From positions 2,145 through 66,144 of IMG/VR virus record IMGVR_UViG_3300033571_014797: a stretch of DNA of 64,000 nucleotides. One strand, given 5' to 3'. Source of the stretch: a virus (taxonomy: Duplodnaviria; Caudoviricetes). The translations under genes were made by a program, and so were the position numbers. The notes below the pieces were generated by a model, which saw only the letters and a list, made by a program, of their open reading frames with translations, had not been told where the DNA came from and did not search any database. Of the stretch, positions 7,649 through 58,628 are shown piece by piece (positions within the stretch are counted from its first letter, which is position 1; each line of letters begins with the position of its first letter).

Positions 7649-9132
7649 TTATAATTAACCTTTTCAATAGTAAATGGGTAATTGGCCTCCTTATAGAATT
7701 GCTTACGTTTTGTTAAATGACGCTTTGCAAATTTGCAATTACCTGTTATGTCCCAAATTTGAACATGATCTTTATCTTGTGCTTTACGAATTCCACGACC
7801 GATAGACTGAATGACACGCACAAAAGACTTACCAGGCTCAATAAGAACAAGATTAAAAATCCTGGGAATATTAATACCCACAGCAGCAACGCCATAGGTG
7901 GCAATGATTGTCTTGTCCATGGTGTCGGCAACTTCGTCATAATGTTCCTTTCTATTCACAGATTTCATATCGCCATTAATGAATACACTATTAGGAATTC
8001 GAGTAGCAAGTTCTTCACCTGACTCAATACGATCTACTAGAATTAATGTATTGCCTGATTTAATGATTTCACTAGTAAGTTTGGCAATATAGTCCAACCT
8101 ATCCTTGTTGGTAGTAAGGTATTTAAGTTCCTTTTGATAGTCAGTAAAGTCTGCGTGTTCTTCAGTTTGAATAACATTCACGTGACATTGTGCTAACACT
8201 CCCTTGTCTTGTAATTCGCTAGCACTAAGCCTACTAATAACTTCACCAATGGAAACTTTAAGGCTGACAAATTCAAACTGTTCTTTTGGAACTGTACCAG
8301 TTAGGCCCCAACGTATTGGAATATGTCCCATATATTCTGTTAGTAGACTTTTAAGAACATCTGCTTTAGCCATATGTACTTCATCAACAATTACCGCAAC
8401 AACGTCTTCAATGAAATCTGCCATTGTAAGACCTGTTTCTTTTTCTTTTTTAAGAATGTTGTTTAGGCTTTGCCAAGTACAAATTGTATGTGTACGCCCA
8501 TAATCTTTTTGATCGCCAAAATATACACCAACATCTAATCCCATATTAACATAATCGGCGTGTGTTTGTCTTACTAGATCCTTATTAGGAACAATAACAA
8601 TGGTTCGCCCATATGTTTCACATTTTTGACTTAATGCAGCAGTCATTATTGTCTTGCCTGCACCTGTCGCTACTTCTTGTAAGCATTGCAGATTTGAAAG
8701 AAAATCGTTGATTATTTCAACTTGATAATCTCGCAATTCAATAGGTTGTCCTTCTGCTGGATGCCCCACTGGCCATTTAATATGACTATAACTGTTTTCA
8801 TTTACTGTTTCAAAATTAAATTGAATTGTGGATGTTCTTTGATCTTCAAGATCGATATTGTAATTACGTTCAGTTAACCACTCGATAATTTCAGGTAACA
8901 AGTTAACATATGTAGAGCCGCTTAGTTGAAAATAAGCAACTTTGCCATCCCACCGTCCTAATCTAACTGCTGGAAGATAACGTGCATAAGGCACTTCATA
9001 TTTGAATTTAGACACCAGTCTTCTTCGAGTATCTGGATCCAAACCTTCAATTTTACAGTTTACTTCATCATAAATTACAAGCTTACAATTTGCCATTGTA
9101 ACTAATTTAGTATAGATAGTTATCAATGTCAA
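7645..9132 (-). CDS. uvsW: UvsW-like SF2 DNA helicase (start probably 9096)
   Basis: LRDYQ, ATGAGKT, DEVH, GLTGT, QSIGRGIR. Confidence 0.88.
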   Translation of the reverse strand: MTLITIYTKLVTMANCKLVIYDEVNCKIEGLDPDTRRRLVSKFKYEVPYARYLPAVRLGRWDGKVAYFQLSGSTYVNLLPEIIEWLTERNYNIDLEDQRTSTIQFNFETVNENSYSHIKWPVGHPAEGQPIELRDYQVEIINDFLSNLQCLQEVATGAGKTIMTAALSQKCETYGRTIVIVPNKDLVRQTHADYVNMGLDVGVYFGDQKDYGRTHTICTWQSLNNILKKEKETGLTMADFIEDVVAVIVDEVHMAKADVLKSLLTEYMGHIPIRWGLTGTVPKEQFEFVSLKVSIGEVISRLSASELQDKGVLAQCHVNVIQTEEHADFTDYQKELKYLTTNKDRLDYIAKLTSEIIKSGNTLILVDRIESGEELATRIPNSVFINGDMKSVNRKEHYDEVADTMDKTIIATYGVAAVGINIPRIFNLVLIEPGKSFVRVIQSIGRGIRKAQDKDHVQIWDITGNCKFAKRHLTKRKQFYKEANYPFTIEKVNYK

Positions 9133-50671: not shown

Positions 50672-50791
50672 TCAACCGTTTTTTGGGTGCTTTTCCTTGC
50701 GGACGTAAGCGCCCTTGCCCTTACGGGCTTTGAGAACCCGCTTGCGAAACAAGGGGTTAGCGAGTGCTTTAGCGTATGGATTTTTGGTCAT
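50672..50791 (-). CDS. arfA: ArfA-like alternative ribosome rescue factor (39 aa)
   Basis: MTKNPYAKALANPLFRKRVLKARKGKGAYVRKEKHPKNG vs E. coli ArfA [37 protein letters not shown]; own promoter. Confidence 0.8.
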   Translation of the reverse strand: MTKNPYAKALANPLFRKRVLKARKGKGAYVRKEKHPKNG

Positions 50792-50805
50792 TTCTAGCCC
50801 CTTTC

Positions 50806-50950
50806 TCATAGTACCATTATATAGCGATTTTGGGCCCAGTCAACCCCTAAAATGTAACAAAAACAGTTACATAAGTTACTGAAATTATTACAATTTTTGA
50901 GCTAAAAATCTGGTTGACTGATCCTATTTTGAGCATATTATAGTGGTATA
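50806..50950. promoter_or_regulatory. Divergent sigma70-like early promoters with TGTAAC-N7-GTTACA palindrome
   Basis: Leftward GTTGAC..TATAAT; rightward GGTTGACtgATCCTATTTTGAGCATATTATAGT; palindrome at 50853-50871. Confidence 0.7.
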
Positions 50951-52020: not shown

Positions 52021-52449
52021 ATGGCATGGGATCAATATGAGGAAGTTTCAGTTGATGAAATGAAAGGCCATGCTTTCTCTCGCATCGAAGTAGATGCAGA
52101 TGACCGCAGTGTAACCTTCTATGGTATGAAGGACCAGCCTTTGTTCCGCATGGAGCATATACAGGACTGTTGTGAGTCTGTGTATCTAGCCGAGGTGATC
52201 GGCAACTGGGACGACCTTATTGGCACTCCTGTATTTGTTGCTGAGTGTGTGAGCAATCATGCAAAACCTCGTGATAATTTGACTATGGATGATGACAAAT
52301 ATTGGGAAGAAGTTGATAGCGAAACTTGGACCTTCTACAAGTTCTCTACCATCAAGGGTAGTGTGACCTTGCGTTGGTATGGTACTAGCAATGGCTACTA
52401 TAGCGAAGGTGTATCAATTATTCCTTGGAGCGAAGACGAAGAGGCATAA
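52021..52449 (+). CDS. Hypothetical phage protein
   Basis: H.QDCCESV..TWTFYKF.T.KG.V.LRW.G.SNGYYSE; AGGAGG RBS. Confidence 0.7.
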   Translation: MAWDQYEEVSVDEMKGHAFSRIEVDADDRSVTFYGMKDQPLFRMEHIQDCCESVYLAEVIGNWDDLIGTPVFVAECVSNHAKPRDNLTMDDDKYWEEVDSETWTFYKFSTIKGSVTLRWYGTSNGYYSEGVSIIPWSEDEEA

Positions 52450-52457
52450 ATTAATGT

Positions 52458-52922
52458 ATGACATATACCGAAACACAATCACGATCTATTGCAAAAACTC
52501 TAACTATTAGAGTTTGTTTTACATTAAGTCATATACTAAATGGCTTTATTGTTAGTGGAGTTTGGTTAACTGGAGTTGTTATTGCCAGTTGGGCAATTCT
52601 AATCAATGCTATTTTGCATTGGCTGCATGAACGTGCTTGGAACTGGGTACAATGGAATCGTAAACCAGGTGATACAATTATGTTTGTTGATGGGCAACCA
52701 CGTACTATCAGCAAGAGTGTTACTTGGCGAGCTTTAATTACTATCAACAACTTCATGATTCCGTATCTAACAACTGGCTCATGGCAAACTGCTCTGGCGT
52801 TCTTAACTGTTGCAACATTATTAAACATTGTTGTTTATTATACACACGAACGAGTATGGAATAAATTTTCTTGGGGCAGAAAATCTTTAGTTGACACAGA
52901 AGAAAACATCGTGTATAAATAA
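52458..52922 (+). CDS. Membrane protein with tandem DUF2061-like repeats
   Basis: Two RS/T..K..T.R...HER.WN units. Confidence 0.7.
   Translation: MTYTETQSRSIAKTLTIRVCFTLSHILNGFIVSGVWLTGVVIASWAILINAILHWLHERAWNWVQWNRKPGDTIMFVDGQPRTISKSVTWRALITINNFMIPYLTTGSWQTALAFLTVATLLNIVVYYTHERVWNKFSWGRKSLVDTEENIVYK
52891..52921 (+). promoter_or_regulatory. Promoter of the leader/tRNA operon
   Basis: TTGACA(52891)-17 nt-TATAAA(52914); the -10 is also an exact TATAAATA late motif. Confidence 0.75.
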
Positions 52923-52951
52923 GAGACAATAAGGAAACAAGGTTCCAAAAA

Positions 52952-53029
52952 ATGTTCAAACGTATGCCCATTAATCATAACTTTACATGCTGGTATGAAG
53001 ATGCCAAGCAAGGGGTTCTGACTATGTGA
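52952..53029 (+). CDS. Putative attenuator leader peptide MFKRMPINHNFTCWYEDAKQGVLTM
   Basis: 25 codons, 19 different amino acids, no non-Met codon repeated; AAGG/AAGGA upstream; 3' end overlaps the antiterminator arm. Confidence 0.75.
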   Translation: MFKRMPINHNFTCWYEDAKQGVLTM

Positions 53030-53058
53030 CATATGTTCACATATGAGTTTGGAACCCC
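53012..53058 (+). promoter_or_regulatory. Antiterminator hairpin
   Basis: GGGGTTCT/GGAACCCC, GACT/AGTT and ATGTGA/TCACAT stems; sequesters the terminator 5' arm. Confidence 0.7.
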
Positions 53059-53085
53059 GAGATAGAAATATCCCGGGGTTTTTTT
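53053..53085 (+). terminator. Intrinsic terminator (attenuator) before the tRNA array
   Basis: AACCCCG-A-GATA GAAA TATC-C-CGGGGTT followed by a T-run. Confidence 0.85.
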
Positions 53086-53095
53086 ATGACAGGCT

Positions 53096-53220
53096 GTTGC
53101 TCCCTCGGCATAAGAGCAACCCTCGACTAGTACGTGGCCATGAATTTGGCGTACAAGTGGTTTCAGCGAGGAAACAAGAAACAGTAATGTTTCTTCACGA
53201 GTGTACCACTAGTGTAGTCG
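53096..53220 (+). ncRNA. Candidate structured ncRNA at the head of the tRNA array
   Basis: GTTGCTC/GAGCAAC hairpin; CGACTA/TAGTCG closing GCCA/TGGC, AGTGGT/ACCACT and AAGAAAC/GTTTCTT stems. Confidence 0.45.
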
Positions 53221-53224
53221 CGAA

Positions 53225-53298
53225 TACCTAGGTCGTTGATCTAAAGGATAGGATGCCTTCGCGTAGGCAATGCGGGTTCGAGTCCCGTACGACAGGTA
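53225..53298 (+). ncRNA. tRNA-like element (atypical anticodon loop, no CCA)
   Basis: T arm GCGGG TTCGAGT CCCGT; TGCCT-N6-AGGCA; GTCGT/ACGAC and TACCT/AGGTA. Confidence 0.55.
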
Positions 53299-53319: not shown

Positions 53320-53396
53320 GGCTCCTAAGTCGAAATGGTTAAGACGCTGGCCTGTCACGCCAGAGATAACGGGTTCGATCCCCGTAGGAGTCGCCA
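53320..53396 (+). tRNA. tRNA-Asp(GTC)
   Basis: CTGGC CT GTC AC GCCAG; CCA end. Confidence 0.92.
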
Positions 53397-53397
53397 C

Positions 53398-53473
53398 TCC
53401 AGGATAGTTCAGTCGGTAGAACATCAGACTCTGACTCTGAGTGTCGGTGGTTCGAATCCATCTCCTGGATCCA
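53398..53473 (+). tRNA. tRNA-Gln(CTG)
   Basis: TCAGA CT CTG AC TCTGA; CCA. Confidence 0.92.
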
Positions 53474-53480
53474 AAAGTTT

Positions 53481-53557
53481 GGGGAAGTGCGCTGGAGAGG
53501 CTACAGCAGGGTCTGCAAAACCTTCGAATGTCGGTTCGAATCCGATCTTCCCCTCCA
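53481..53557 (+). tRNA. tRNA-Cys(GCA)
   Basis: GGGT CT GCA AA ACCT; U73; CCA. Confidence 0.88.
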
Positions 53558-53564
53558 ATACAAT

Positions 53565-53640
53565 GGTCCGAATAACGGTTGGTTCCGTCACAAACAAGTC
53601 CAAATTATTTGGTCGGGGTTCGATTCCCTAAGGGCCGCCA
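53565..53640 (+). tRNA. Degenerate tRNA-like gene (Trp CCA?)
   Basis: T arm and GCCA end intact; acceptor and anticodon stems imperfect. Confidence 0.5.
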
Positions 53641-53646
53641 TTTAAT

Positions 53647-53722
53647 GCCGTCAGGGAGGTCTTGGCGATTTCACTGCTCTCATAAGGCAGCTAACTAGGT
53701 TCGATGCCTGGTGACGGCACCA
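53647..53722 (+). tRNA. tRNA-CAT (Met or Ile2)
   Basis: CTGCT CT CAT AA GGCAG; CCA. Confidence 0.85.
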
Positions 53723-53726
53723 ATAT

Positions 53727-53802
53727 CCTAACTTAGTGTTGTTGGTCAGCACGGCTGATTGTGGATCAGCAAGACTAGGTTCGAATCCTAGAGTTAGGAC
53801 CA
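53727..53802 (+). tRNA. tRNA-His(GTG), no G-1, A73
   Basis: GCTGA TT GTG GA TCAGC; CCTAACT/AGTTAGG ACCA. Confidence 0.9.
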
Positions 53803-53821
53803 TATAAAAAATATATACAGT

Positions 53822-54379
53822 ATGCAACTTTTAGAATTTATCGAAACAGTTAATTATCCTAAAACAGACAAATATGATCTGGGTTACATACATGAATTTT
53901 ATAACGACTTGTTTAGTCCTAGGCAACAAACTGTTAAAAATTTATTAGAGATAGGCATGCAAAACGGTTATAGTATGAAACTATGGAGAGATTATTTTGT
54001 TAATGCTGACATATATGGGATAGATATTAACAAATGTGAATCATTAGCAAATCAAAGCCGAATACAACCTATATACAAAAGTGCCTATACTGATGAGGTA
54101 GTTGATAGTTTTGAAAAAAACTTTTTTGATGTCGTCATAGACGATGGCCCCCATACATTTCCTACTATGGAATTCTTTTGTAAAAATTATCTGCCTTTAG
54201 TAAAGCCAGGCGGCTTATTAATACTAGAAGATATTGTAGACATATCTTGGACTGATAAATTTATGCAGATTTTTAATGGTTATGATGCTAAAGTCATACA
54301 TATGGCAGGTTTAGCTAAAACAACTAAACTGCAACAAAAATGGGCGACGGGATTAGATGTAATCGTAGTTCAAAAATAA
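53822..54379 (+). CDS. Class I SAM-dependent O-methyltransferase-like protein
   Basis: TDK..Y; LLEIG..GYS..LWRDYF..IYGIDI; VIDDGPH; PGGLLILED. Confidence 0.8.
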   Translation: MQLLEFIETVNYPKTDKYDLGYIHEFYNDLFSPRQQTVKNLLEIGMQNGYSMKLWRDYFVNADIYGIDINKCESLANQSRIQPIYKSAYTDEVVDSFEKNFFDVVIDDGPHTFPTMEFFCKNYLPLVKPGGLLILEDIVDISWTDKFMQIFNGYDAKVIHMAGLAKTTKLQQKWATGLDVIVVQK

Positions 54380-54384
54380 AGTAA

Positions 54385-54472
54385 GGGAGAGCTGCTCTGA
54401 CGGCGGAAGGGCACCGGACTGTAAATCCGGCACATAGAAACTCAGTTGGTTCGAATCCAACCTCTCCCACCA
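54385..54472 (+). tRNA. tRNA-Tyr(GTA)
   Basis: CCGGA CT GTA AA TCCGG; long variable arm; CCA. Confidence 0.92.
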
Positions 54473-54527
54473 AATAATGTGTTGACACTTACCTTAAAGG
54501 TGTTAATGTAAGCATGTAAGCAAAATA

Positions 54528-54672
54528 AAATGTTATTTGAAAACGTAGCAAACGGTTGTGTACCAGATACTGGCAGGGCAGACAGAGGTTGCTGTTGAAA
54601 TATACAGTGTACGGGTGAAATCCTGGAGGCCATGAGGGATAAACAGGTTTGTTGCGTTTTCAAATAACATTT
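54528..54672 (+). ncRNA. Candidate ncRNA closed by a 26-bp stem
   Basis: AAATGTTATTTGAAAACGTAGCAAAC / GTTTGTTGCGTTTTCAAATAACATTT with two G-U pairs; TTGACA at 54482. Confidence 0.6.
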
Positions 54673-54748
54673 GGACCCTTAGCTCAGTTGGTAGAGCATC
54701 GGACTTTTAATCCGTTGGTCGCCGGTTCGAACCCGGCAGGGTCTACCA
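54673..54748 (+). tRNA. tRNA-Lys(TTT)
   Basis: CGGA CT TTT AA TCCG; CCA. Confidence 0.92.
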
Positions 54749-54754
54749 AAGAAT

Positions 54755-54829
54755 GGGGACAGTAGTGGGTGTACGGATCTCCCTTGCACGGAGATTGTCT
54801 ATAGGGTTCGATTCCCTGGGTCTCCACCA
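54755..54829 (+). tRNA. tRNA-Ala(TGC)
   Basis: TCTCC CT TGC AC GGAGA; G3:U70; weak D arm. Confidence 0.82.
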
Positions 54830-54847
54830 TACACTATAAATATTACT

Positions 54848-55414
54848 ATGCAAGACATTCGTCATTTTATCGACATCTTAGAATCTAAAAATAGACCAAG
54901 CAAGTTATTTTTGGAGAAATTGCCTTACAAAGCATCAGAGCTCGCACCTGTGCTTAGTAAAGAAAATATAGATTATCATTACAACGTACTAAGCAATGGA
55001 TATGTAAATCGATATAACGAAGGCGAAGGAGATCCAGATTTTAATTATGGCGGAGCTATGCTACACAATATATTTTGGCAGCAGTTGCAAGCACCAAAAG
55101 GATCAAATCGTCCTATAGGTATAGTGAAAGAACTAATAGAAGACAAATTTAAGTCATATGATTCATTTGTTGAACAAATGATTACCAGTGCAATGTCTAT
55201 ACAAGGTTCTGGTTGGGTATATTTGTCTAAATCAGGTGACATAAAGACTATACCAAATCAAAATTATAAAACAGATATACTGATGCCCTTAGACATGTGG
55301 GAGCATAGTTTTATGGATTATATTCCAGCTAAGGATGCTAAGAAAAAATACATTACTGCTATGTTACGAATAGTCAATTGGGCAGTTATAAACGATAGAC
55401 TCAATACAAAATAA
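54848..55414 (+). CDS. Fe/Mn superoxide dismutase
   Basis: LPY...L.P, YHY, NYGGAMLHNIFW, QGSGW, DMWEHS. Confidence 0.88.
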   Translation: MQDIRHFIDILESKNRPSKLFLEKLPYKASELAPVLSKENIDYHYNVLSNGYVNRYNEGEGDPDFNYGGAMLHNIFWQQLQAPKGSNRPIGIVKELIEDKFKSYDSFVEQMITSAMSIQGSGWVYLSKSGDIKTIPNQNYKTDILMPLDMWEHSFMDYIPAKDAKKKYITAMLRIVNWAVINDRLNTK

Positions 55415-55420
55415 ATTATC

Positions 55421-55510
55421 GTTGGATCTAGTTACAGGCTTAGGGAAATACCCTTACAAAAACCCTGTCGCAATACTAGACTGCACACGGAACAACACGT
55501 GAGTTCCAGC
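55421..55510 (+). ncRNA. Candidate multibranch ncRNA
   Basis: GTTGGA/TCCAGC, TCTAGT/ACTAGA, ACAGG/CCTGT, AGGG/CCCT, CACG/CGTG. Confidence 0.45.
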
Positions 55511-55520
55511 AAGTTTTTAT

Positions 55521-55596
55521 CAGGGACGACGTAGGGTTAGATTACTCCCGCCCTTGGAAGGCGGGCAACCCGGGGCAGCGCCGGGGTTCCTGACCA
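55521..55596 (+). tRNA. tRNA-Pro(TGG), atypical T loop
   Basis: CCGCC CT TGG AA GGCGG; C1-G72, A73; T loop GGCAGCG. Confidence 0.8.
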
Positions 55597-55602
55597 ATTA
55601 AT

Positions 55603-55676
55603 GCGAGTGTGATGTAATGGTAGCATTACGGTCTCCAAAACCGTCCGTTAGGGTTCAAATCCTTACACTCGTGCCA
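55603..55676 (+). tRNA. tRNA-Trp(CCA)
   Basis: ACGGT CT CCA AA ACCGT; G73; CCA. Confidence 0.92.
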
Positions 55677-55681
55677 AATTT

Positions 55682-55755
55682 GCTTCTGTAGCTCAAAGGT
55701 AGAGCACTCGACTGATAATCGAGAGACGTTGGATCGATACCATCTAGAAGCACCA
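55682..55755 (+). tRNA. tRNA-Ile(GAT)
   Basis: CTCGA CT GAT AA TCGAG; CCA. Confidence 0.9.
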
Positions 55756-55762
55756 AGTTTAT

Positions 55763-55840
55763 TCGCAGGTAGTCATCCAGGTGATGGCGCTCGGCTGTTA
55801 ACCGAGATTGAGATTGGTTCGAGTCCAATCCTGCGAGCCA
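55763..55840 (+). tRNA. tRNA-Asn(GTT)
   Basis: CTCGG CT GTT AA CCGAG; G73; CCA. Confidence 0.9.
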
Positions 55841-55846
55841 TTTTAC

Positions 55847-55921
55847 GGAGCGTTCGTCTATCGGCTAGGACGCTGGCCTTTCAAGCCGGCAAGAGGGGTT
55901 CGATTCCCCTACGCTCTACCA
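55847..55921 (+). tRNA. tRNA-Glu(TTC)
   Basis: CTGGC CT TTC AA GCCGG; CCA. Confidence 0.92.
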
Positions 55922-56017
55922 AAGTTGCTGGACTACTATCCATTGGTTTCTAGATCTGATGGTGTGCTTACCAGTAGAGGATCCCGATCACCTCTATAAA
56001 AACGCGGATGAATTTAT

Positions 56018-56093
56018 GGACCGTTAGCTGAGTTGGTTTTAGCAGGAGACTCTTAATCTCTAGACGGGGGTTCGAATCCCTCACGGTCTACCA
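56018..56093 (+). tRNA. tRNA-Lys(CTT)
   Basis: GGAGA CT CTT AA TCTCT; CCA. Confidence 0.92.
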
Positions 56094-56133
56094 TTAAATT
56101 GCATTTTTAACAAAAGGATGTATACTATAAAAT

Positions 56134-56592
56134 ATGAAAAAAATATTAGTTTTATTATTTGCGCTATTGCCTAATATAGCCCAAGCTGATACTATTATTG
56201 GATTCAAAGGCAAAAATAACGCCTTTGATCATCAAGCATTTGAAAAATATGCAGCTAAACGAAAACTAACACCTGTAGTTTTAAGTGCATTTGATTCTAA
56301 AAATGCCATGCATATTATTCGTATTAATTCTACATATGAATTATATGGTTATAGTTTAGGCGCTGCTAGCGTTGCACAGACCATGCGATTAATAGAAAAA
56401 GAAAAATTACACATGCCTAGATACGTTATTACAGTTGGTGCATACAGAACAACCAATGTTGATTTCAACAAATACAATGTTAAGTTTGACAATTATTTTG
56501 ATGCAAGCGGAGCTGGTACAAAAAGTCCAGGAAAACATTTAGGTGTTAGTCATAGCGATATTATGAGATATGTAGTTGATACATTCTACTAG
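56134..56592 (+). CDS. Secreted small alpha/beta-hydrolase-like protein
   Basis: Signal peptide; GYSLGA nucleophile elbow. Confidence 0.6.
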   Translation: MKKILVLLFALLPNIAQADTIIGFKGKNNAFDHQAFEKYAAKRKLTPVVLSAFDSKNAMHIIRINSTYELYGYSLGAASVAQTMRLIEKEKLHMPRYVITVGAYRTTNVDFNKYNVKFDNYFDASGAGTKSPGKHLGVSHSDIMRYVVDTFY

Positions 56593-56600
56593 GAGATTAC

Positions 56601-56771
56601 ATGAGTAAAAGTAATAAACATGCAGGACAAATCAACATGCGTGGCAAGAAGTACAAGCTCATGCGATGTGGATGTTGTGAATGCATTGACTTTAGAGACA
56701 AGTTTACTGCAAAAGAACATGCAAAAGAAATTAAGGCCGCTTTGGTGAAGGAGGTACTCACGTCTGCCTGA
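56601..56771 (+). CDS. Small Cys-containing protein overlapping tRNA-Phe
   Basis: AGGAG RBS; MSKSNKHAGQINMRGKKYKLMRCGCCECIDFRD..; 56 aa. Confidence 0.55.
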   Translation: MSKSNKHAGQINMRGKKYKLMRCGCCECIDFRDKFTAKEHAKEIKAALVKEVLTSA

Positions 56772-56811
56772 AGAGCAGAAGAACCTGGATCGATACCGGG
56801 AGGCGGCACCA
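56736..56811 (+). tRNA. tRNA-Phe(GAA)
   Basis: TCTGC CT GAA GA GCAGA; CCA. Confidence 0.88.
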
Positions 56812-56816
56812 TTAAT

Positions 56817-56893
56817 GCATCTGTAGCTCAATGGATTAGAGCAGCGGTCTTCGAAACCGTAGGTTGGGAGTTCGAATCTCTCCAGGTGCACCA
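56817..56893 (+). tRNA. tRNA-Arg(TCG)
   Basis: GCGGT CT TCG AA ACCGT; CCA. Confidence 0.92.
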
Positions 56894-56911
56894 ATTATAA
56901 GTAGTATCAAC

Positions 56912-57451
56912 ATGCTTTGTTATAAACCTTTAAAATATCAAAATCATCAATTGGTAAGTAAAAAACTTTATGATTTTACTGTTAATCAAACAAATGTTTT
57001 ACAGAGAGCTATCTTTTGGAACAATATAGATTGTGATCAAGTGTTAGCAGCTATTCCTGAATTACAAGAAGTTCTAGATCAGTACCAGTTGAATAAGCCT
57101 TATCAAACTGCTTTGCTTTATAGTGGCACTATTCAAGGTAACATACATATCGACGGCGGCAAAGACGTTAGAATACTATGGCCAGTTTGCAATACTGAAG
57201 GATCGAAAACTAAATGGTTTGATGTCGATCCAGAATTTATTGTACCACAAAAACAAAAGAATGCAGGATGGATAGTAACTAAACAAGAAGGTCATCGAGT
57301 AATTGATGAATTAGAAATTACTGAACCAATATTCTTCAATTCGGGTATACCTCATGGTATCTATTGCAATCCTAAATATAATAGAAATCAACCGAGAATA
57401 ACATTTGTTATGTTATTCTATCCAAGAATAAATTACTTGCTTGAAGAATAA
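56912..57451 (+). CDS. Hypothetical cupin/2OG-oxygenase-like protein
   Basis: IHIDG...PHG...RI pattern; start moved downstream of the tRNA. Confidence 0.6.
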   Translation: MLCYKPLKYQNHQLVSKKLYDFTVNQTNVLQRAIFWNNIDCDQVLAAIPELQEVLDQYQLNKPYQTALLYSGTIQGNIHIDGGKDVRILWPVCNTEGSKTKWFDVDPEFIVPQKQKNAGWIVTKQEGHRVIDELEITEPIFFNSGIPHGIYCNPKYNRNQPRITFVMLFYPRINYLLEE

Positions 57452-57480
57452 AAAGAATATATAGTAGGTGAATGAAATAT

Positions 57481-57556
57481 GCGGGATTAGCTCAGTGGTA
57501 GTAGCGTCTGCTTTACACGCAGAATGTCGGGAGTTCGACCCTCTCATCCCGCACCA
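57481..57556 (+). tRNA. tRNA-Val(TAC)
   Basis: TCTGC TT TAC AC GCAGA; CCA. Confidence 0.92.
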
Positions 57557-57561
57557 TATAT

Positions 57562-57643
57562 GCCAAGGTGGCTCAGTGGCGACAGCACCGCTCTTGTAAG
57601 GCGGGATACAACACCGGGGGTTCGAGTCCCTCCCTTGGCACCA
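57562..57643 (+). tRNA. tRNA-Thr(TGT), enlarged variable loop
   Basis: CCGCT CT TGT AA GGCGG; 11-nt variable region. Confidence 0.88.
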
Positions 57644-57699
57644 TACTTTGGTAATTAGTAATTTACTTTTTAATTGTAAGTTACGAACATAAATACAAT

Positions 57700-58413
57700 A
57701 TGAATTATCAACTACATTACGATAAACTAATAGATCGTGCAAAACATAGAGTCTTAGAAAGTTATTCAGAAAGACATCATATAATTCCGCGATGCATGGG
57801 CGGGTCTGATGACCTAGACAATCTAGTCAATTTAACTCCTGAAGAACATTATGTTGCACATCAATTATTAGTTAAAATATTTCCTAACAATGCTAAGTTA
57901 ATCAATGCTGCTATAATGATGATCCCAAATCGACCTTCCAATAAATTGTATGGTTGGCTAAGAAAAAAATTTGCTGAAAATCAGAGCATAAATCAAACTG
58001 GATCAGGTAATTCTCAATACGGAACAAGATGGGTTCATAACATCGATTTAAAAGAAAGTAAAAAGATAAAAATTACAGACCCATTGCCTAATGGTTGGCT
58101 GGAAGGCCGTAAGATTAATTTTTATCTAAATATCGTAAATTGTAAAAACTGTAATAAACAGTTTGAACGAATTTCATTAGAAATATATTGTTCTGAAATT
58201 TGCAAGCGACACGATAGATCAGATGCAATTAAACTCATTGACATTAAATTAGATGAAATGCTTGAATACTATTCAAATGTAAGATCAATAGATAAAACAT
58301 TAAAACATTTTGGAGTAAAAGGTTTATCTGACACTGGAAGAGCCGGTAATAGATATTTTTCTAGCATACTTAAAGAAAAGAATATATACGTTAGACCAAG
58401 AACAAAAAAGTAA
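57700..58413 (+). CDS. Free-standing HNH homing endonuclease
   Basis: Y.ERHHIIPRCMGGSDD..NLV.LTPEEHYVAHQLL. Confidence 0.88.
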   Translation: MNYQLHYDKLIDRAKHRVLESYSERHHIIPRCMGGSDDLDNLVNLTPEEHYVAHQLLVKIFPNNAKLINAAIMMIPNRPSNKLYGWLRKKFAENQSINQTGSGNSQYGTRWVHNIDLKESKKIKITDPLPNGWLEGRKINFYLNIVNCKNCNKQFERISLEIYCSEICKRHDRSDAIKLIDIKLDEMLEYYSNVRSIDKTLKHFGVKGLSDTGRAGNRYFSSILKEKNIYVRPRTKK

Positions 58414-58495
58414 GCCTGGGTGGCTCAGCGGCGACAGCAACGCTCTAGTAAGGCGTCATTACACAACGGGGGTTCGAGTCCCTCCCCAGGCACCA
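58414..58495 (+). tRNA. tRNA-Thr(AGT), A34, enlarged variable loop
   Basis: ACGCT CT AGT AA GGCGT; paralog of Thr(TGT). Confidence 0.85.
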
Positions 58496-58553
58496 TCCAA
58501 CAATATCTCTTACGCTTAAAAGAAATTTGCGCACCAGAGAGGTCACTTATTTT

Positions 58554-58628
58554 TGCGGGGTAGAGCATTGGTAGCTCGCTAGCCTCATAAGCTAGAGGTA
58601 GGGTGTTCGATTCACTCCCCCGCAACCA
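58554..58628 (+). tRNA. tRNA-Met(CAT), initiator-like
   Basis: TGCGGGG acceptor; GAGC/GCTC D stem (A11-U24); CT CAT AA. Confidence 0.88.

What the first reader, a model, noticed from the sequence alone, without database searches (positions are those of the whole stretch)
52891..53085. Pan-codon ribosome-stalling attenuator gating a phage tRNA array
Seen: promoter TTGACA-17-TATAAA(TA), then a 25-codon ORF (52952-53029) ATG TTC AAA CGT ATG CCC ATT AAT CAT AAC TTT ACA TGC TGG TAT GAA GAT GCC AAG CAA GGG GTT CTG ACT ATG TGA. It encodes 19 of 20 amino acids (only Ser missing); a uniform random 25-mer averages about 14-15. All 22 non-Met codons differ, and repeated residues use different synonyms (TTC/TTT, AAA/AAG, AAT/AAC, ACA/ACT). 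The last codons and stop (GGGGTTCT GACT ATGTGA) can pair with TCACAT..AGTT..GGAACCCC. That 3' segment overlaps the 5' arm of a GAAA-capped intrinsic terminator (53053-53085), and the tRNA array begins right after. Known: trp/his/thr-type attenuators use this geometry but with runs of one or two amino acids, and host anticodon nucleases (PrrC, VapC, PARIS AriB, retron PtuAB) destroy tRNAs during infection. Inference: a ribosome that finishes the leader masks the antiterminator, so transcription terminates. A stall at an upstream codon frees it and the tRNAs are transcribed. This would be a general tRNA-integrity sensor that deploys replacement tRNAs on demand. I do not know of a prior description but cannot search.
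Basis: partly seen in the sequence, partly recalled or inferred. Interest (0 to 1): 0.95.

Follow-up and report, generated by a model that had tools for sequence, protein, structure and literature searches.

The report
Many-amino-acid leader switch before phage tRNAs
A large uncultured phage and its relatives place a tiny reading frame that uses nearly every amino acid, ending inside an RNA stop/go switch, ahead of their tRNA genes, so they probably make more tRNA when ribosomes decode slowly.

Summary
At 52891-53085 there is a consensus sigma-70 promoter, a 25-codon ORF with 19 different amino acids, a long hairpin (P1) that holds the stop codon, and an intrinsic terminator (P2) whose 5' arm is the 3' base of P1.

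I found the same layout in 20 of 20 loci (about 11 lineages of uncultured aquatic phages), always ahead of a tRNA array. Sequences differ but the geometry is fixed. The segment that pairs with the terminator arm lies 3-21 nt before the stop codon in 13 of 14 distinct leaders.

All 15 leaders tested exceed the null mean for amino-acid diversity, and two contain all 20 (20/31, 20/34). With the discovery lineage left out, Fisher P is 1.4e-4 under a uniform null and 6e-7 under phage composition. The excess is specific to the reading frame.

Best reading (confidence 0.6): a ribosome-dependent attenuator. A finished leader gives termination; slow or stalled decoding gives read-through into a conserved structured RNA and the tRNAs.

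Caveats: there are no expression data. Column-wise covariation of P1 was not significant. Only codons upstream of P1 can report a stall. The match between leader codons and array tRNAs is mixed.

My searches found no published account. This scan noted the same kind of switch before on other phage DNA.

The parts
52891..52919 (+). Sigma-70-type promoter, TTGACA-17-TATAAA. It overlaps the 3' end of the DUF2061 gene (stop at 52920-52922).
   Evidence: TTGACA plus TATAAA at a 17-nt spacing in 7 of 7 full-length rows of alignment A3. A promoter-like site was also found in 17 of the 18 leaders extracted; the L116 group has the weaker TTGCTG-18-TATAAA.
52940..52943 (+). Weak Shine-Dalgarno-like AAGG, 8 nt before the ATG, in an A-rich 5' UTR.
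   Evidence: SD-like purines lie 4-11 nt before the start in relatives; L108 (GAGGA) and the L118 group (GGAG) have the clearest ones. That this is a ribosome-binding site is inference.
52952..53029 (+). Leader ORF, 25 codons plus TGA, with 19 different amino acids.
   Evidence: An ORF of 23-40 codons is present in all 20 loci. The ATG is invariant in the 7 full-length rows of A3.
52988..53010 (+). P0 hairpin inside the ORF, covering the W-Y-E-D-A codons. It lies 0-1 nt upstream of P1 and is a possible RNA polymerase pause hairpin (inference).
   Evidence: A hairpin is predicted at this place in 6 of 8 rows and again. The TGG/GCC pairs are invariant and the inner pairs vary (helix 1).
53012..53058 (+). 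P1, the antiterminator hairpin. The 5' arm is the last five sense codons plus TGA. The 3' base (53051-53058) is also the 5' arm of the terminator.
   Evidence: Hairpin z-scores against dinucleotide shuffles run from -3.6 to -5.8 in 7 of 7 lineages.
53051..53085 (+). P2, the intrinsic terminator: 13-bp stem with an A/C mismatch, GAAA loop, and seven T at 53079-53085.
   Evidence: RNAalifold on 7 sequences gave 5 pairs with compensatory changes. A relative's contig (X4) has an inserted G after 53060 that turns the mismatch into a G-C pair plus a bulge.
53088..53171 (+). Conserved two-hairpin RNA of unknown function. It is the first product of read-through.
   Evidence: 21 pairs, 6 with compensatory changes. 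Present between the switch and the first tRNA in 20 of 20 loci. No Rfam family.
53232..53293 (+). tRNA-like element, not called by ARAGORN at default settings.
   Evidence: Rfam tRNA 26.2 bits, below the gathering score of 29.
53320..58628 (+). Array of 19 tRNA genes covering 16 amino acids, interspersed with ORFs (methyltransferase-like, Fe/Mn-SOD-like, HNH).
   Evidence: No + strand promoter-like site with 10 or more of 12 matches lies between 53086 and 58700.

Best explanation
This is a ribosome-dependent (leader-peptide) transcription attenuator at the head of the phage's tRNA array.

Proposed steps:
1. Host RNA polymerase starts at the consensus promoter and transcribes a 25-codon leader.
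2. The last codons and the stop codon form the 5' arm of a long hairpin, P1. The 3' base of P1 is the same 8 nt that form the 5' arm of an intrinsic terminator, P2.
3. If a ribosome translates the leader at normal speed and reaches the UGA, it covers the 5' arm of P1. The shared segment then pairs downstream, P2 forms and transcription stops.
4. If no ribosome arrives in time, because it is slowed or stalled at any of roughly the first 16 codons or because initiation fails, P1 forms first. The terminator arm is sequestered, and polymerase runs on into a conserved structured RNA and the 19 tRNA genes.
5. The family keeps these leaders unusually rich in different amino acids, so the switch samples decoding of many codon families at once. 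It acts as a broad gauge of tRNA supply that raises phage tRNA synthesis when decoding falters.

Shown here: the anatomy, its conservation, the mutually exclusive pairings, the frame-specific diversity excess and the position ahead of tRNA arrays.

Inferred: translation of the leader, the direction of the switch, P0 as a pause hairpin, and the physiological trigger (loss of host tRNA or anticodon nucleases).
For: 1. Anatomy in the window. With the P1 base forced the fold is -40.0 kcal/mol; with the terminator base forced it is -39.1, so the two states are nearly equal in energy. When a ribosome footprint is masked at codon 10 and the RNA is made only up to 53071, P1 forms.
2. Recurrence: 20 of 20 loci that carry the downstream RNA also carry promoter, ORF, P1 and P2 47-291 nt upstream of it, and tRNA genes after it. 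Eighteen were found by an automatic pipeline, with L103 as a partial leader and L118 and L124 read by eye. tRNA positions are.
3. Geometry: in 13 of 14 distinct leaders the best complement to the first 9 nt of the terminator arm lies 3-21 nt upstream of the stop codon. It beats 1000 dinucleotide shuffles at P <= 0.05 in 8 of 14 (one search gave 6 of 7). The stop lies 23-36 nt before the terminator arm.
4. Three-way change: the shared segment differs between lineages (GGAACCCC, AAACCCT, AAAACCCCC, AAAACCCTC) and both partners follow it. A relative's G53051A turns a U-G pair of P1 into U-A.
5. The ORF is open in every locus, while the other two frames carry stops in nearly all. The 5' half of the peptide diverges freely. 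The 3' half follows the RNA pairing, which fits a regulatory ORF and not a functional peptide.
6. Diversity: all 15 leaders tested exceed the null mean. L121 has 20 of 31 and the L116 group has 20 of 34. Fisher over 10 conservative representatives, leaving out window and L107, gives P = 1.4e-4 (uniform) and 5.9e-7 (phage composition). Frame 0 exceeds both other frames in 14 of 14 leaders.
7. Leader codons readable by the tRNAs found downstream: 124 of 176 against 106 expected (P = 0.003). In the 5' zone it is 91 of 123 against 74 expected (P = 0.001).
8. Context: the same phage encodes an ArfA ribosome-rescue factor, and relatives encode tmRNA.
Against: - No RNA or ribosome data. The two metatranscriptome runs laid cover only tRNA-like stretches and a 37-nt piece of the downstream RNA, at under 95% likeness.
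- Column-wise covariation of P0 plus P1 on a model-fitted alignment was not significant. The covariation score was reached by 296 of 500 shuffles, and 3 pairs had double changes against a shuffle mean of 2.8. Paired cells were 74.5% against 29-53% for slid partners. Support for P1 therefore rests on each sequence folding alike.
- In full-length minimum-energy folds the terminator coexists with the upper part of P1 in most lineages. Antitermination would have to be kinetic.
- The Shine-Dalgarno sites are weak in several lineages.
- Only codons at least 14 nt upstream of P1 can signal a stall. In the window that zone holds 13 amino acids, not 19.
- The codon match to the array is absent in L119 (16/29, P = 0.77) and L121 (17/31, P = 0.26). 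No tRNA-Pro, Gly, Leu or Ser was found in the window's array.
- In group A a promoter-like site stands between the switch and the array.
- The lineages are homologous, so the combined P values overstate their independence.
- Of 5 close pairs, only window/L107 suggests that diversity is actively maintained (P = 0.018). The rest are uninformative.
Confidence: 0.6

Rival explanations
1. The switch is a ribosome-dependent attenuator, but it reports only overall ribosome availability or transcription-translation coupling, for instance the early-to-late shift in infection. In this reading the amino-acid diversity of the leader has no sensing role.
For: Any leader composition would work in this geometry. 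Only part of the ORF can signal a stall. The 5' halves alone carry 10-12 distinct residues in 13-17 codons, which is only about 1 SD above expectation by my own count. The codon match is mixed.
Against: The diversity excess is family-wide and frame-specific, with two leaders holding all 20 amino acids. The window/L107 pair keeps 19 through three replacements (P = 0.018).
Confidence: 0.2
2. Promoter, ORF and terminator form a separate small gene or a small RNA, and the terminator simply ends it and the upstream operon. The tRNA array would have its own promoter.
For: In group A a TTGACA-17/18-TATAAG site precedes the downstream RNA. In the window ATGACA-17-CATAAG overlaps the first hairpin of that RNA. 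Upstream + strand promoters at 50914, 51297 and 51950 also feed this terminator.
Against: The peptide is not conserved apart from residues encoded by paired RNA. The first hairpin of the downstream RNA, which starts 10 nt after the T-run, shows 4 pairs with compensatory changes. It must therefore be transcribed from upstream, through the terminator. The overlap of P1 and P2 is kept in every lineage.
Confidence: 0.08
3. P1 and P2 are switched by a trans factor (a protein, a tRNA or a small molecule) and not by the ribosome. The ORF would be incidental.
For: P1 has conserved internal loops and an (A)UGUGA/UCACAU upper stem in many lineages. Translation has not been shown.
Against: No Rfam family, including T-box, reaches threshold. 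The ORF is open in 20 of 20 loci while the other frames are closed. The stop codon keeps a fixed place in the 5' arm of P1.
Confidence: 0.06
4. Chance: an ordinary terminator after the DUF2061 gene, with a spurious short ORF.
Against: The module is kept where the upstream gene differs or is absent: L104, L106, and the X2 contig that joins 52442 to 52940. The module recurs in 20 of 20 loci and the diversity statistics are replicated.
Confidence: 0.02

Closest known systems
Leader-peptide transcription attenuators of enterobacterial amino-acid operons (trpL, hisL, pheL, leuL, thrL, ilvL). Recalled knowledge; pheL background seen in the search listing and abstract of PMC3082878.
   Same: A promoter-proximal short ORF, an intrinsic terminator, and an antiterminator that shares a strand with the terminator. 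A ribosome at the stop codon favours termination, and a ribosome stalled upstream favours read-through.
   Different: There is no run of codons for one or a few amino acids; the leaders hold 16-20 different residues. There are three hairpins, with no competing 1:2 'protector', so the state without a ribosome should be read-through (inference). The output is tRNA genes and a structured RNA, not biosynthetic enzymes. It is in a phage.
The whiB7 uORF attenuator of mycobacteria (PMC10274678; abstract read).
   Same: Stalling in a uORF is believed to cause antitermination. According to the abstract, depriving many amino acids or inhibiting tRNAs and tRNA synthetases activates it, and the uORF's coding sequence sets what it senses.
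   Different: According to the abstract that uORF is enriched for alanine, and the output is a transcription factor. Here the composition is spread over nearly all amino acids and the output is the tRNAs themselves. No sequence relation was tested.
The silent long tRNA array (trn operon) of Anabaena PCC 7120, induced by translational stress (PMC8421152, word search of the text; PMC10272220, abstract).
   Same: An accessory tRNA array that is switched on when translation is impaired.
   Different: Control there is by the protein repressor TrcR (abstract of PMC10272220). The words attenuat*, leader and terminator do not occur in PMC8421152. It is a cellular megaplasmid, not a phage.
Antibiotic-responsive leader attenuators, for example mef(E)/mel (PMC4335068; search listing and abstract only).
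   Same: Transcription attenuation is relieved when ribosomes are impeded in a leader.
   Different: The trigger there is a drug-bound ribosome and the output is resistance genes. No breadth of amino acids is described.

Membership tests
Ribosome-mediated (leader-peptide) transcription attenuator | Short ORF with a start codon and ribosome-binding site just downstream of the promoter | tested here: met
   An ORF of 23-40 codons is found in 20 of 20 loci. The ATG is invariant in the 7 full-length rows of A3. SD-like purines are present but weak in several lineages.
Ribosome-mediated (leader-peptide) transcription attenuator | Intrinsic terminator between the leader ORF and the regulated genes | tested here: met
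   Hairpins of -14 to -25 kcal/mol followed by a T-run in all leaders. Five compensatory pairs.
Ribosome-mediated (leader-peptide) transcription attenuator | Antiterminator hairpin mutually exclusive with the terminator | tested here: met
   Between 4 and 11 nt are shared between P1 and P2 in every lineage. The alignment-free shuffle test gave P <= 0.05 in 8 of 14. Column-wise covariation was not significant.
Ribosome-mediated (leader-peptide) transcription attenuator | Stop codon placed so that a terminating ribosome covers the 5' strand of the antiterminator | tested here: met
   The strand that pairs with the terminator arm lies 3-21 nt before the stop in 13 of 14.
Ribosome-mediated (leader-peptide) transcription attenuator | Run of regulatory codons for the end-product amino acid(s) | tested here: not met
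   There are no runs. Instead the leaders hold 16-20 different amino acids. This is the point on which it departs from the classical members.
Ribosome-mediated (leader-peptide) transcription attenuator | Upstream 1:2 hairpin that competes with the antiterminator and pauses the polymerase | tested here: inconclusive
   A P0 hairpin abuts P1 but does not share nucleotides with it. Pausing cannot be tested here.
Ribosome-mediated (leader-peptide) transcription attenuator | Read-through depends on leader translation | not testable with these tools
   No usable RNA data.
T-box riboswitch or any other Rfam cis-regulator | Match to the family covariance model | tested here: not met
   Nothing reaches a gathering score. 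The weak PyrR (24 bits against 54) and His_leader (16 against 49) hits reflect terminator-like shape only.

The most novel reading that the evidence does not exclude
The leader is a dedicated 'test message' kept stocked with nearly all amino acids. A shortage or cleavage of almost any tRNA, for example by host anticodon nucleases or by phage-induced decay of host tRNA, stalls a ribosome in it and switches on the phage's replacement tRNAs. These are made together with a conserved leader RNA that may make the long untranslated transcript resistant to termination. That would be a self-adjusting counter-defence and tRNA-homeostasis circuit, widespread in large aquatic phages.
Probability: 0.3. Interest if true: 0.9.

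Novelty: new variant of a known kind. Interest (0 to 1): 0.8.

Why it matters
How phage tRNA genes are regulated is essentially undescribed. Current debate concerns why phages carry them at all: codon compensation, or escape from tRNA-targeting defences (PMC10264068, abstract seen).

A cis-acting switch that reads decoding speed over many codon families and feeds back on tRNA synthesis would give three things:
- a mechanism for on-demand deployment of phage tRNAs;
- the first leader-peptide attenuator whose output is tRNA;
- a compact natural sensor of translation capacity for any codon.

The promoter is a consensus sigma-70 site and the terminator is intrinsic, so the roughly 200-nt cassette can be tested directly in laboratory E. 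coli or in a reconstituted coupled system.

Tried and rejected
Relatives through neighbouring genes:
- DNA searches of the 'phages' collection found nothing near and only tRNA matches at distance. A protein search with the DUF2061 gene found nothing.
- DUF2061 relatives L002-L010 are followed by a radical-SAM-like gene and not by the leader.
- A DNA search of five of their records gave only chance-level hits.
- The methyltransferase gave no relatives.
- Of the 80 DUF7448 loci, only L022 and L023 carry the leader.

Metagenome scan: it gave two true loci and one chance hit, L105.

RNA evidence: runs X15 and X17 cover only tRNA-like parts, so nothing can be said about expression. X2 and X4 are DNA contigs of relatives. 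Only the differences listed in the tables could be used; 122 more were not shown.

Covariation: a covariance model built on the window's P0 and P1 gave an alignment in which covariation is not significant. RNAalifold did not return P1.

Points I rejected or found unsupported:
- 'TGA is always the stop'. It holds in 17 of 20; the L116 group uses TAA and L125 uses TAG.
- '13 codons before Trp is universal'. L108 has 17 and the L121 group has 21.
ARAGORN finds no tRNA-Pro even at 80% thresholds.
- The long-range pairing of the 5' UTR with the shared segment is lineage-specific: present in window and L107, partial in L106.

Other results: the 68-aa ORF behind the switch in group A has no Pfam family.

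Literature: searches found no paper on attenuators before phage tRNA genes. Supplements were not consulted.
Full report
**What is there.** The window is part of a 66-kb fragment of an uncultured large myovirus. It has tail sheath, tail tube and terminase genes, and CheckV completeness is 19%. At 52891-52919 stands TTGACA-17-TATAAA, the only such site in the window, overlapping the end of a DUF2061 gene. A 25-codon ORF follows at 52952-53029: MFKRMPINHNFTCWYEDAKQGVLTM, then TGA. Its last five sense codons and the stop form the 5' arm of a 47-nt hairpin, P1 (53012-53058). The last 8 nt of P1, GGAACCCC, are also the 5' arm of a GAAA-capped terminator hairpin, P2 (53051-53082), followed by seven T. 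A smaller hairpin, P0 (52988-53010), lies inside the ORF and abuts P1. Forcing the P1 base gives -40.0 kcal/mol and forcing the P2 base gives -39.1, so the two states are nearly equal in energy.

**Is the composition unusual?** Yes. The ORF has 19 different residues in 25. Only 4 of 38,499 six-frame 25-mers of the window reach that number, and the next best of 70 ATG ORFs of 23-27 aa has 16. P is 7e-5 to 4e-4 against the phage's own genes or codon usage and 1.4e-3 under a uniform null.

**Relatives.** Neighbouring genes led to two syntenic loci, L022 and L023. A very conserved RNA just downstream of the terminator gave search patterns. These brought in L103 and L104 from metagenomes, L106-L108 and L116-L127. 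In 20 of 20 loci the same module precedes that RNA by 47-291 nt: a promoter-like site, an ORF of 23-40 codons, P1 holding the stop codon, and P2. tRNA genes follow in every locus. The upstream neighbour varies. It is DUF2061 in some, another gene in L104, and tRNAs in L106. A relative's contig joins 52442 directly to 52940. The module therefore travels with the tRNA array and not with the upstream gene. Each contig searched has one copy.

**The switch.**
- Every sequence folds on its own into P0, P1 and P2.
- P1 is far more stable than dinucleotide shuffles, with z from -3.6 to -5.8 in 7 of 7.
- The segment that best pairs with the base of the terminator arm lies 3-21 nt before the stop codon in 13 of 14 distinct leaders. 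It beats shuffles at P <= 0.05 in 8 of 14.
- The shared segment differs between lineages and both partners follow it.
- P2 has 5 pairs with compensatory changes.
- Two natural variants fit the model: G53051A makes a U-G pair of P1 into U-A, and an inserted G after 53060 repairs the terminator's mismatch.

Against this, a column-wise count on a model-fitted alignment gave no significant covariation for P0 and P1. The score was reached in 296 of 500 shuffles, although 74.5% of cells pair against 29-53% when partners are slid. The arms shift register between lineages, which such a count cannot follow. In full-length minimum-energy folds the terminator mostly coexists with the upper part of P1, so any antitermination must be kinetic.

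**The ORF.** It is open in all loci, while the other two frames have stops in nearly all. The peptide's 5' half is not conserved. Its 3' half changes in step with the RNA pairs of P0 and P1. For example, the codon after Trp is GAC, TCG or CTA, paired with GTC, CGG or TGG. That is the signature of a regulatory reading frame, not of a functional peptide.

**Diversity across the family.**

| Leader | Distinct amino acids / length |
|---|---|
| window | 19/25 |
| L107 | 19/25 |
| L106 | 17/24 |
| L126 | 17/24 |
| L023 | 17/23 |
| L022 | 16/23 |
| L104 | 17/26 |
| L108 | 17/29 |
| L116 group | 20/34 |
| L125 | 18/40 |
| L121 | 20/31 |
| L117 | 19/31 |
| L119 | 18/29 |
| L120 | 18/29 |
| L124 | 17/28 |

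Every leader is above the null mean. I left out the discovery lineage and took the lower-scoring member of each close pair. Fisher's combination over the 10 remaining leaders gives P = 1.4e-4 under a uniform null and 5.9e-7 under phage composition. These lineages share ancestry, so the figures overstate their independence. The excess is frame-specific: frame 0 exceeds both other frames in 14 of 14. Among close pairs only window/L107 speaks for maintenance. Three replacements lose Gln, gain Ser and move His, and the count stays at 19 (P = 0.018). The other four pairs are uninformative.

**Does the leader mirror the array?** Partly. The tRNAs found downstream can read 124 of 176 leader codons, against 106 expected (P = 0.003). 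For codons far enough upstream of P1 to signal a stall the figure is 91 of 123 against 74 expected (P = 0.001).
- Signal carried by: window (14/16), L106 (18/19) and L108 (19/21).
- Signal absent in: L119 and L121.
- Caveat: several arrays are cut off by the ends of the fetched loci.

The window's array has no tRNA for Pro, Gly, Leu or Ser, so the companion note's '16 of 16' is 15 of 16.

**Mechanism proposed.** A ribosome that reaches the stop covers the 5' arm of P1. The shared segment then pairs with the downstream arm and transcription ends. A ribosome delayed in about the first 16 codons, or no ribosome at all, leaves P1 intact and transcription runs on. The first read-through product is an 84-nt two-hairpin RNA with 6 compensatory pairs and no Rfam family. 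Its first hairpin starts 10 nt after the T-run, so it can only be made by read-through. That argues that read-through transcripts matter. No strong promoter-like site lies between the terminator and the end of the array. In seven GC-richer loci (group A), however, a small ORF and a TTGACA-17/18-TATAAG site lie between the switch and that RNA, so gating there would be partial.

**Known relatives of the idea.** Classical amino-acid operon attenuators share the geometry but use codon runs. The whiB7 uORF attenuator responds to many amino-acid and tRNA deficits, but it is alanine-rich and drives a transcription factor (abstract). The Anabaena trn array is induced by translational stress through a protein repressor. 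Six literature searches found no attenuator before phage tRNA genes.

This scan has noted the same kind of switch before on other phage DNA. Those notes gave me the two papers above. I did not count them as evidence.

**Verdict.** The switch is real, conserved and unusual. The mechanism is well motivated by anatomy but untested. I rate it a new variant of a known kind.

Noticed in passing
window 53088-53171; also L022, L023, L103, L104, L106-L108, L116-L127: A conserved two-hairpin RNA of about 84 nt (invariant ACAGG, GCATAAGA loop, GTACGTGG...CGTACAAGTGGTTTC) heads the tRNA array in 20 of 20 loci. It has 6 compensatory pairs and no Rfam family. It may be a cis-acting antitermination or processing element (guess).
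   Followed up: partly
window 50672-50806 (- strand): A 44-aa ORF matches Pfam ArfA (alternative ribosome-rescue factor A) at 41.5 bits against a cut-off of 25.5. The phage therefore carries a ribosome-rescue factor 2 kb from the switch.
   Followed up: partly
window 53232-53293 and 53565-53640: Two tRNA-like elements fall below normal thresholds. The first scores 26.2 bits against the Rfam tRNA model (gathering score 29) and has an odd anticodon loop. The second is called tRNA-Trp(cca) only when ARAGORN thresholds are lowered to 80%.
   Followed up: partly
L121 (tRNA at 9026 in the orientation): ARAGORN labels one array member SeC(tca), at the place where the related L118 has Glu(ttc). It may be a UGA-reading tRNA in a phage whose leader ends in UGA.
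   Followed up: no
L004 2379-2738; L009 1036-1454: More distant relatives that share the DUF2061 gene encode a permuted tmRNA with a plausible tag (ANDNA...LAA) next to tRNA-Arg.
   Followed up: no
window 52940-52950 with 53049-53057: The 5' UTR sequence AAGGTTCCAAA is complementary to TTTGGAACC of the shared switch segment and enters the minimum-energy fold. The pairing is kept and extended in L107, partial in L106, and absent in L023 and L104.
   Followed up: partly
L118 3547-3753 (and the same place in L117, L119-L121, L124, L127): A conserved 68-aa ORF (MAVHFVGFRGDEY...) sits directly behind the switch in group A and has no Pfam family. In L106 and L126 a different small ORF holds that place.
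   Followed up: partly
window 53822-54379, 54848-55414, 57700-58413: The tRNA array is interspersed with ORFs for a SAM-methyltransferase-like protein, an Fe/Mn superoxide-dismutase-like protein and an HNH endonuclease.
   Followed up: no
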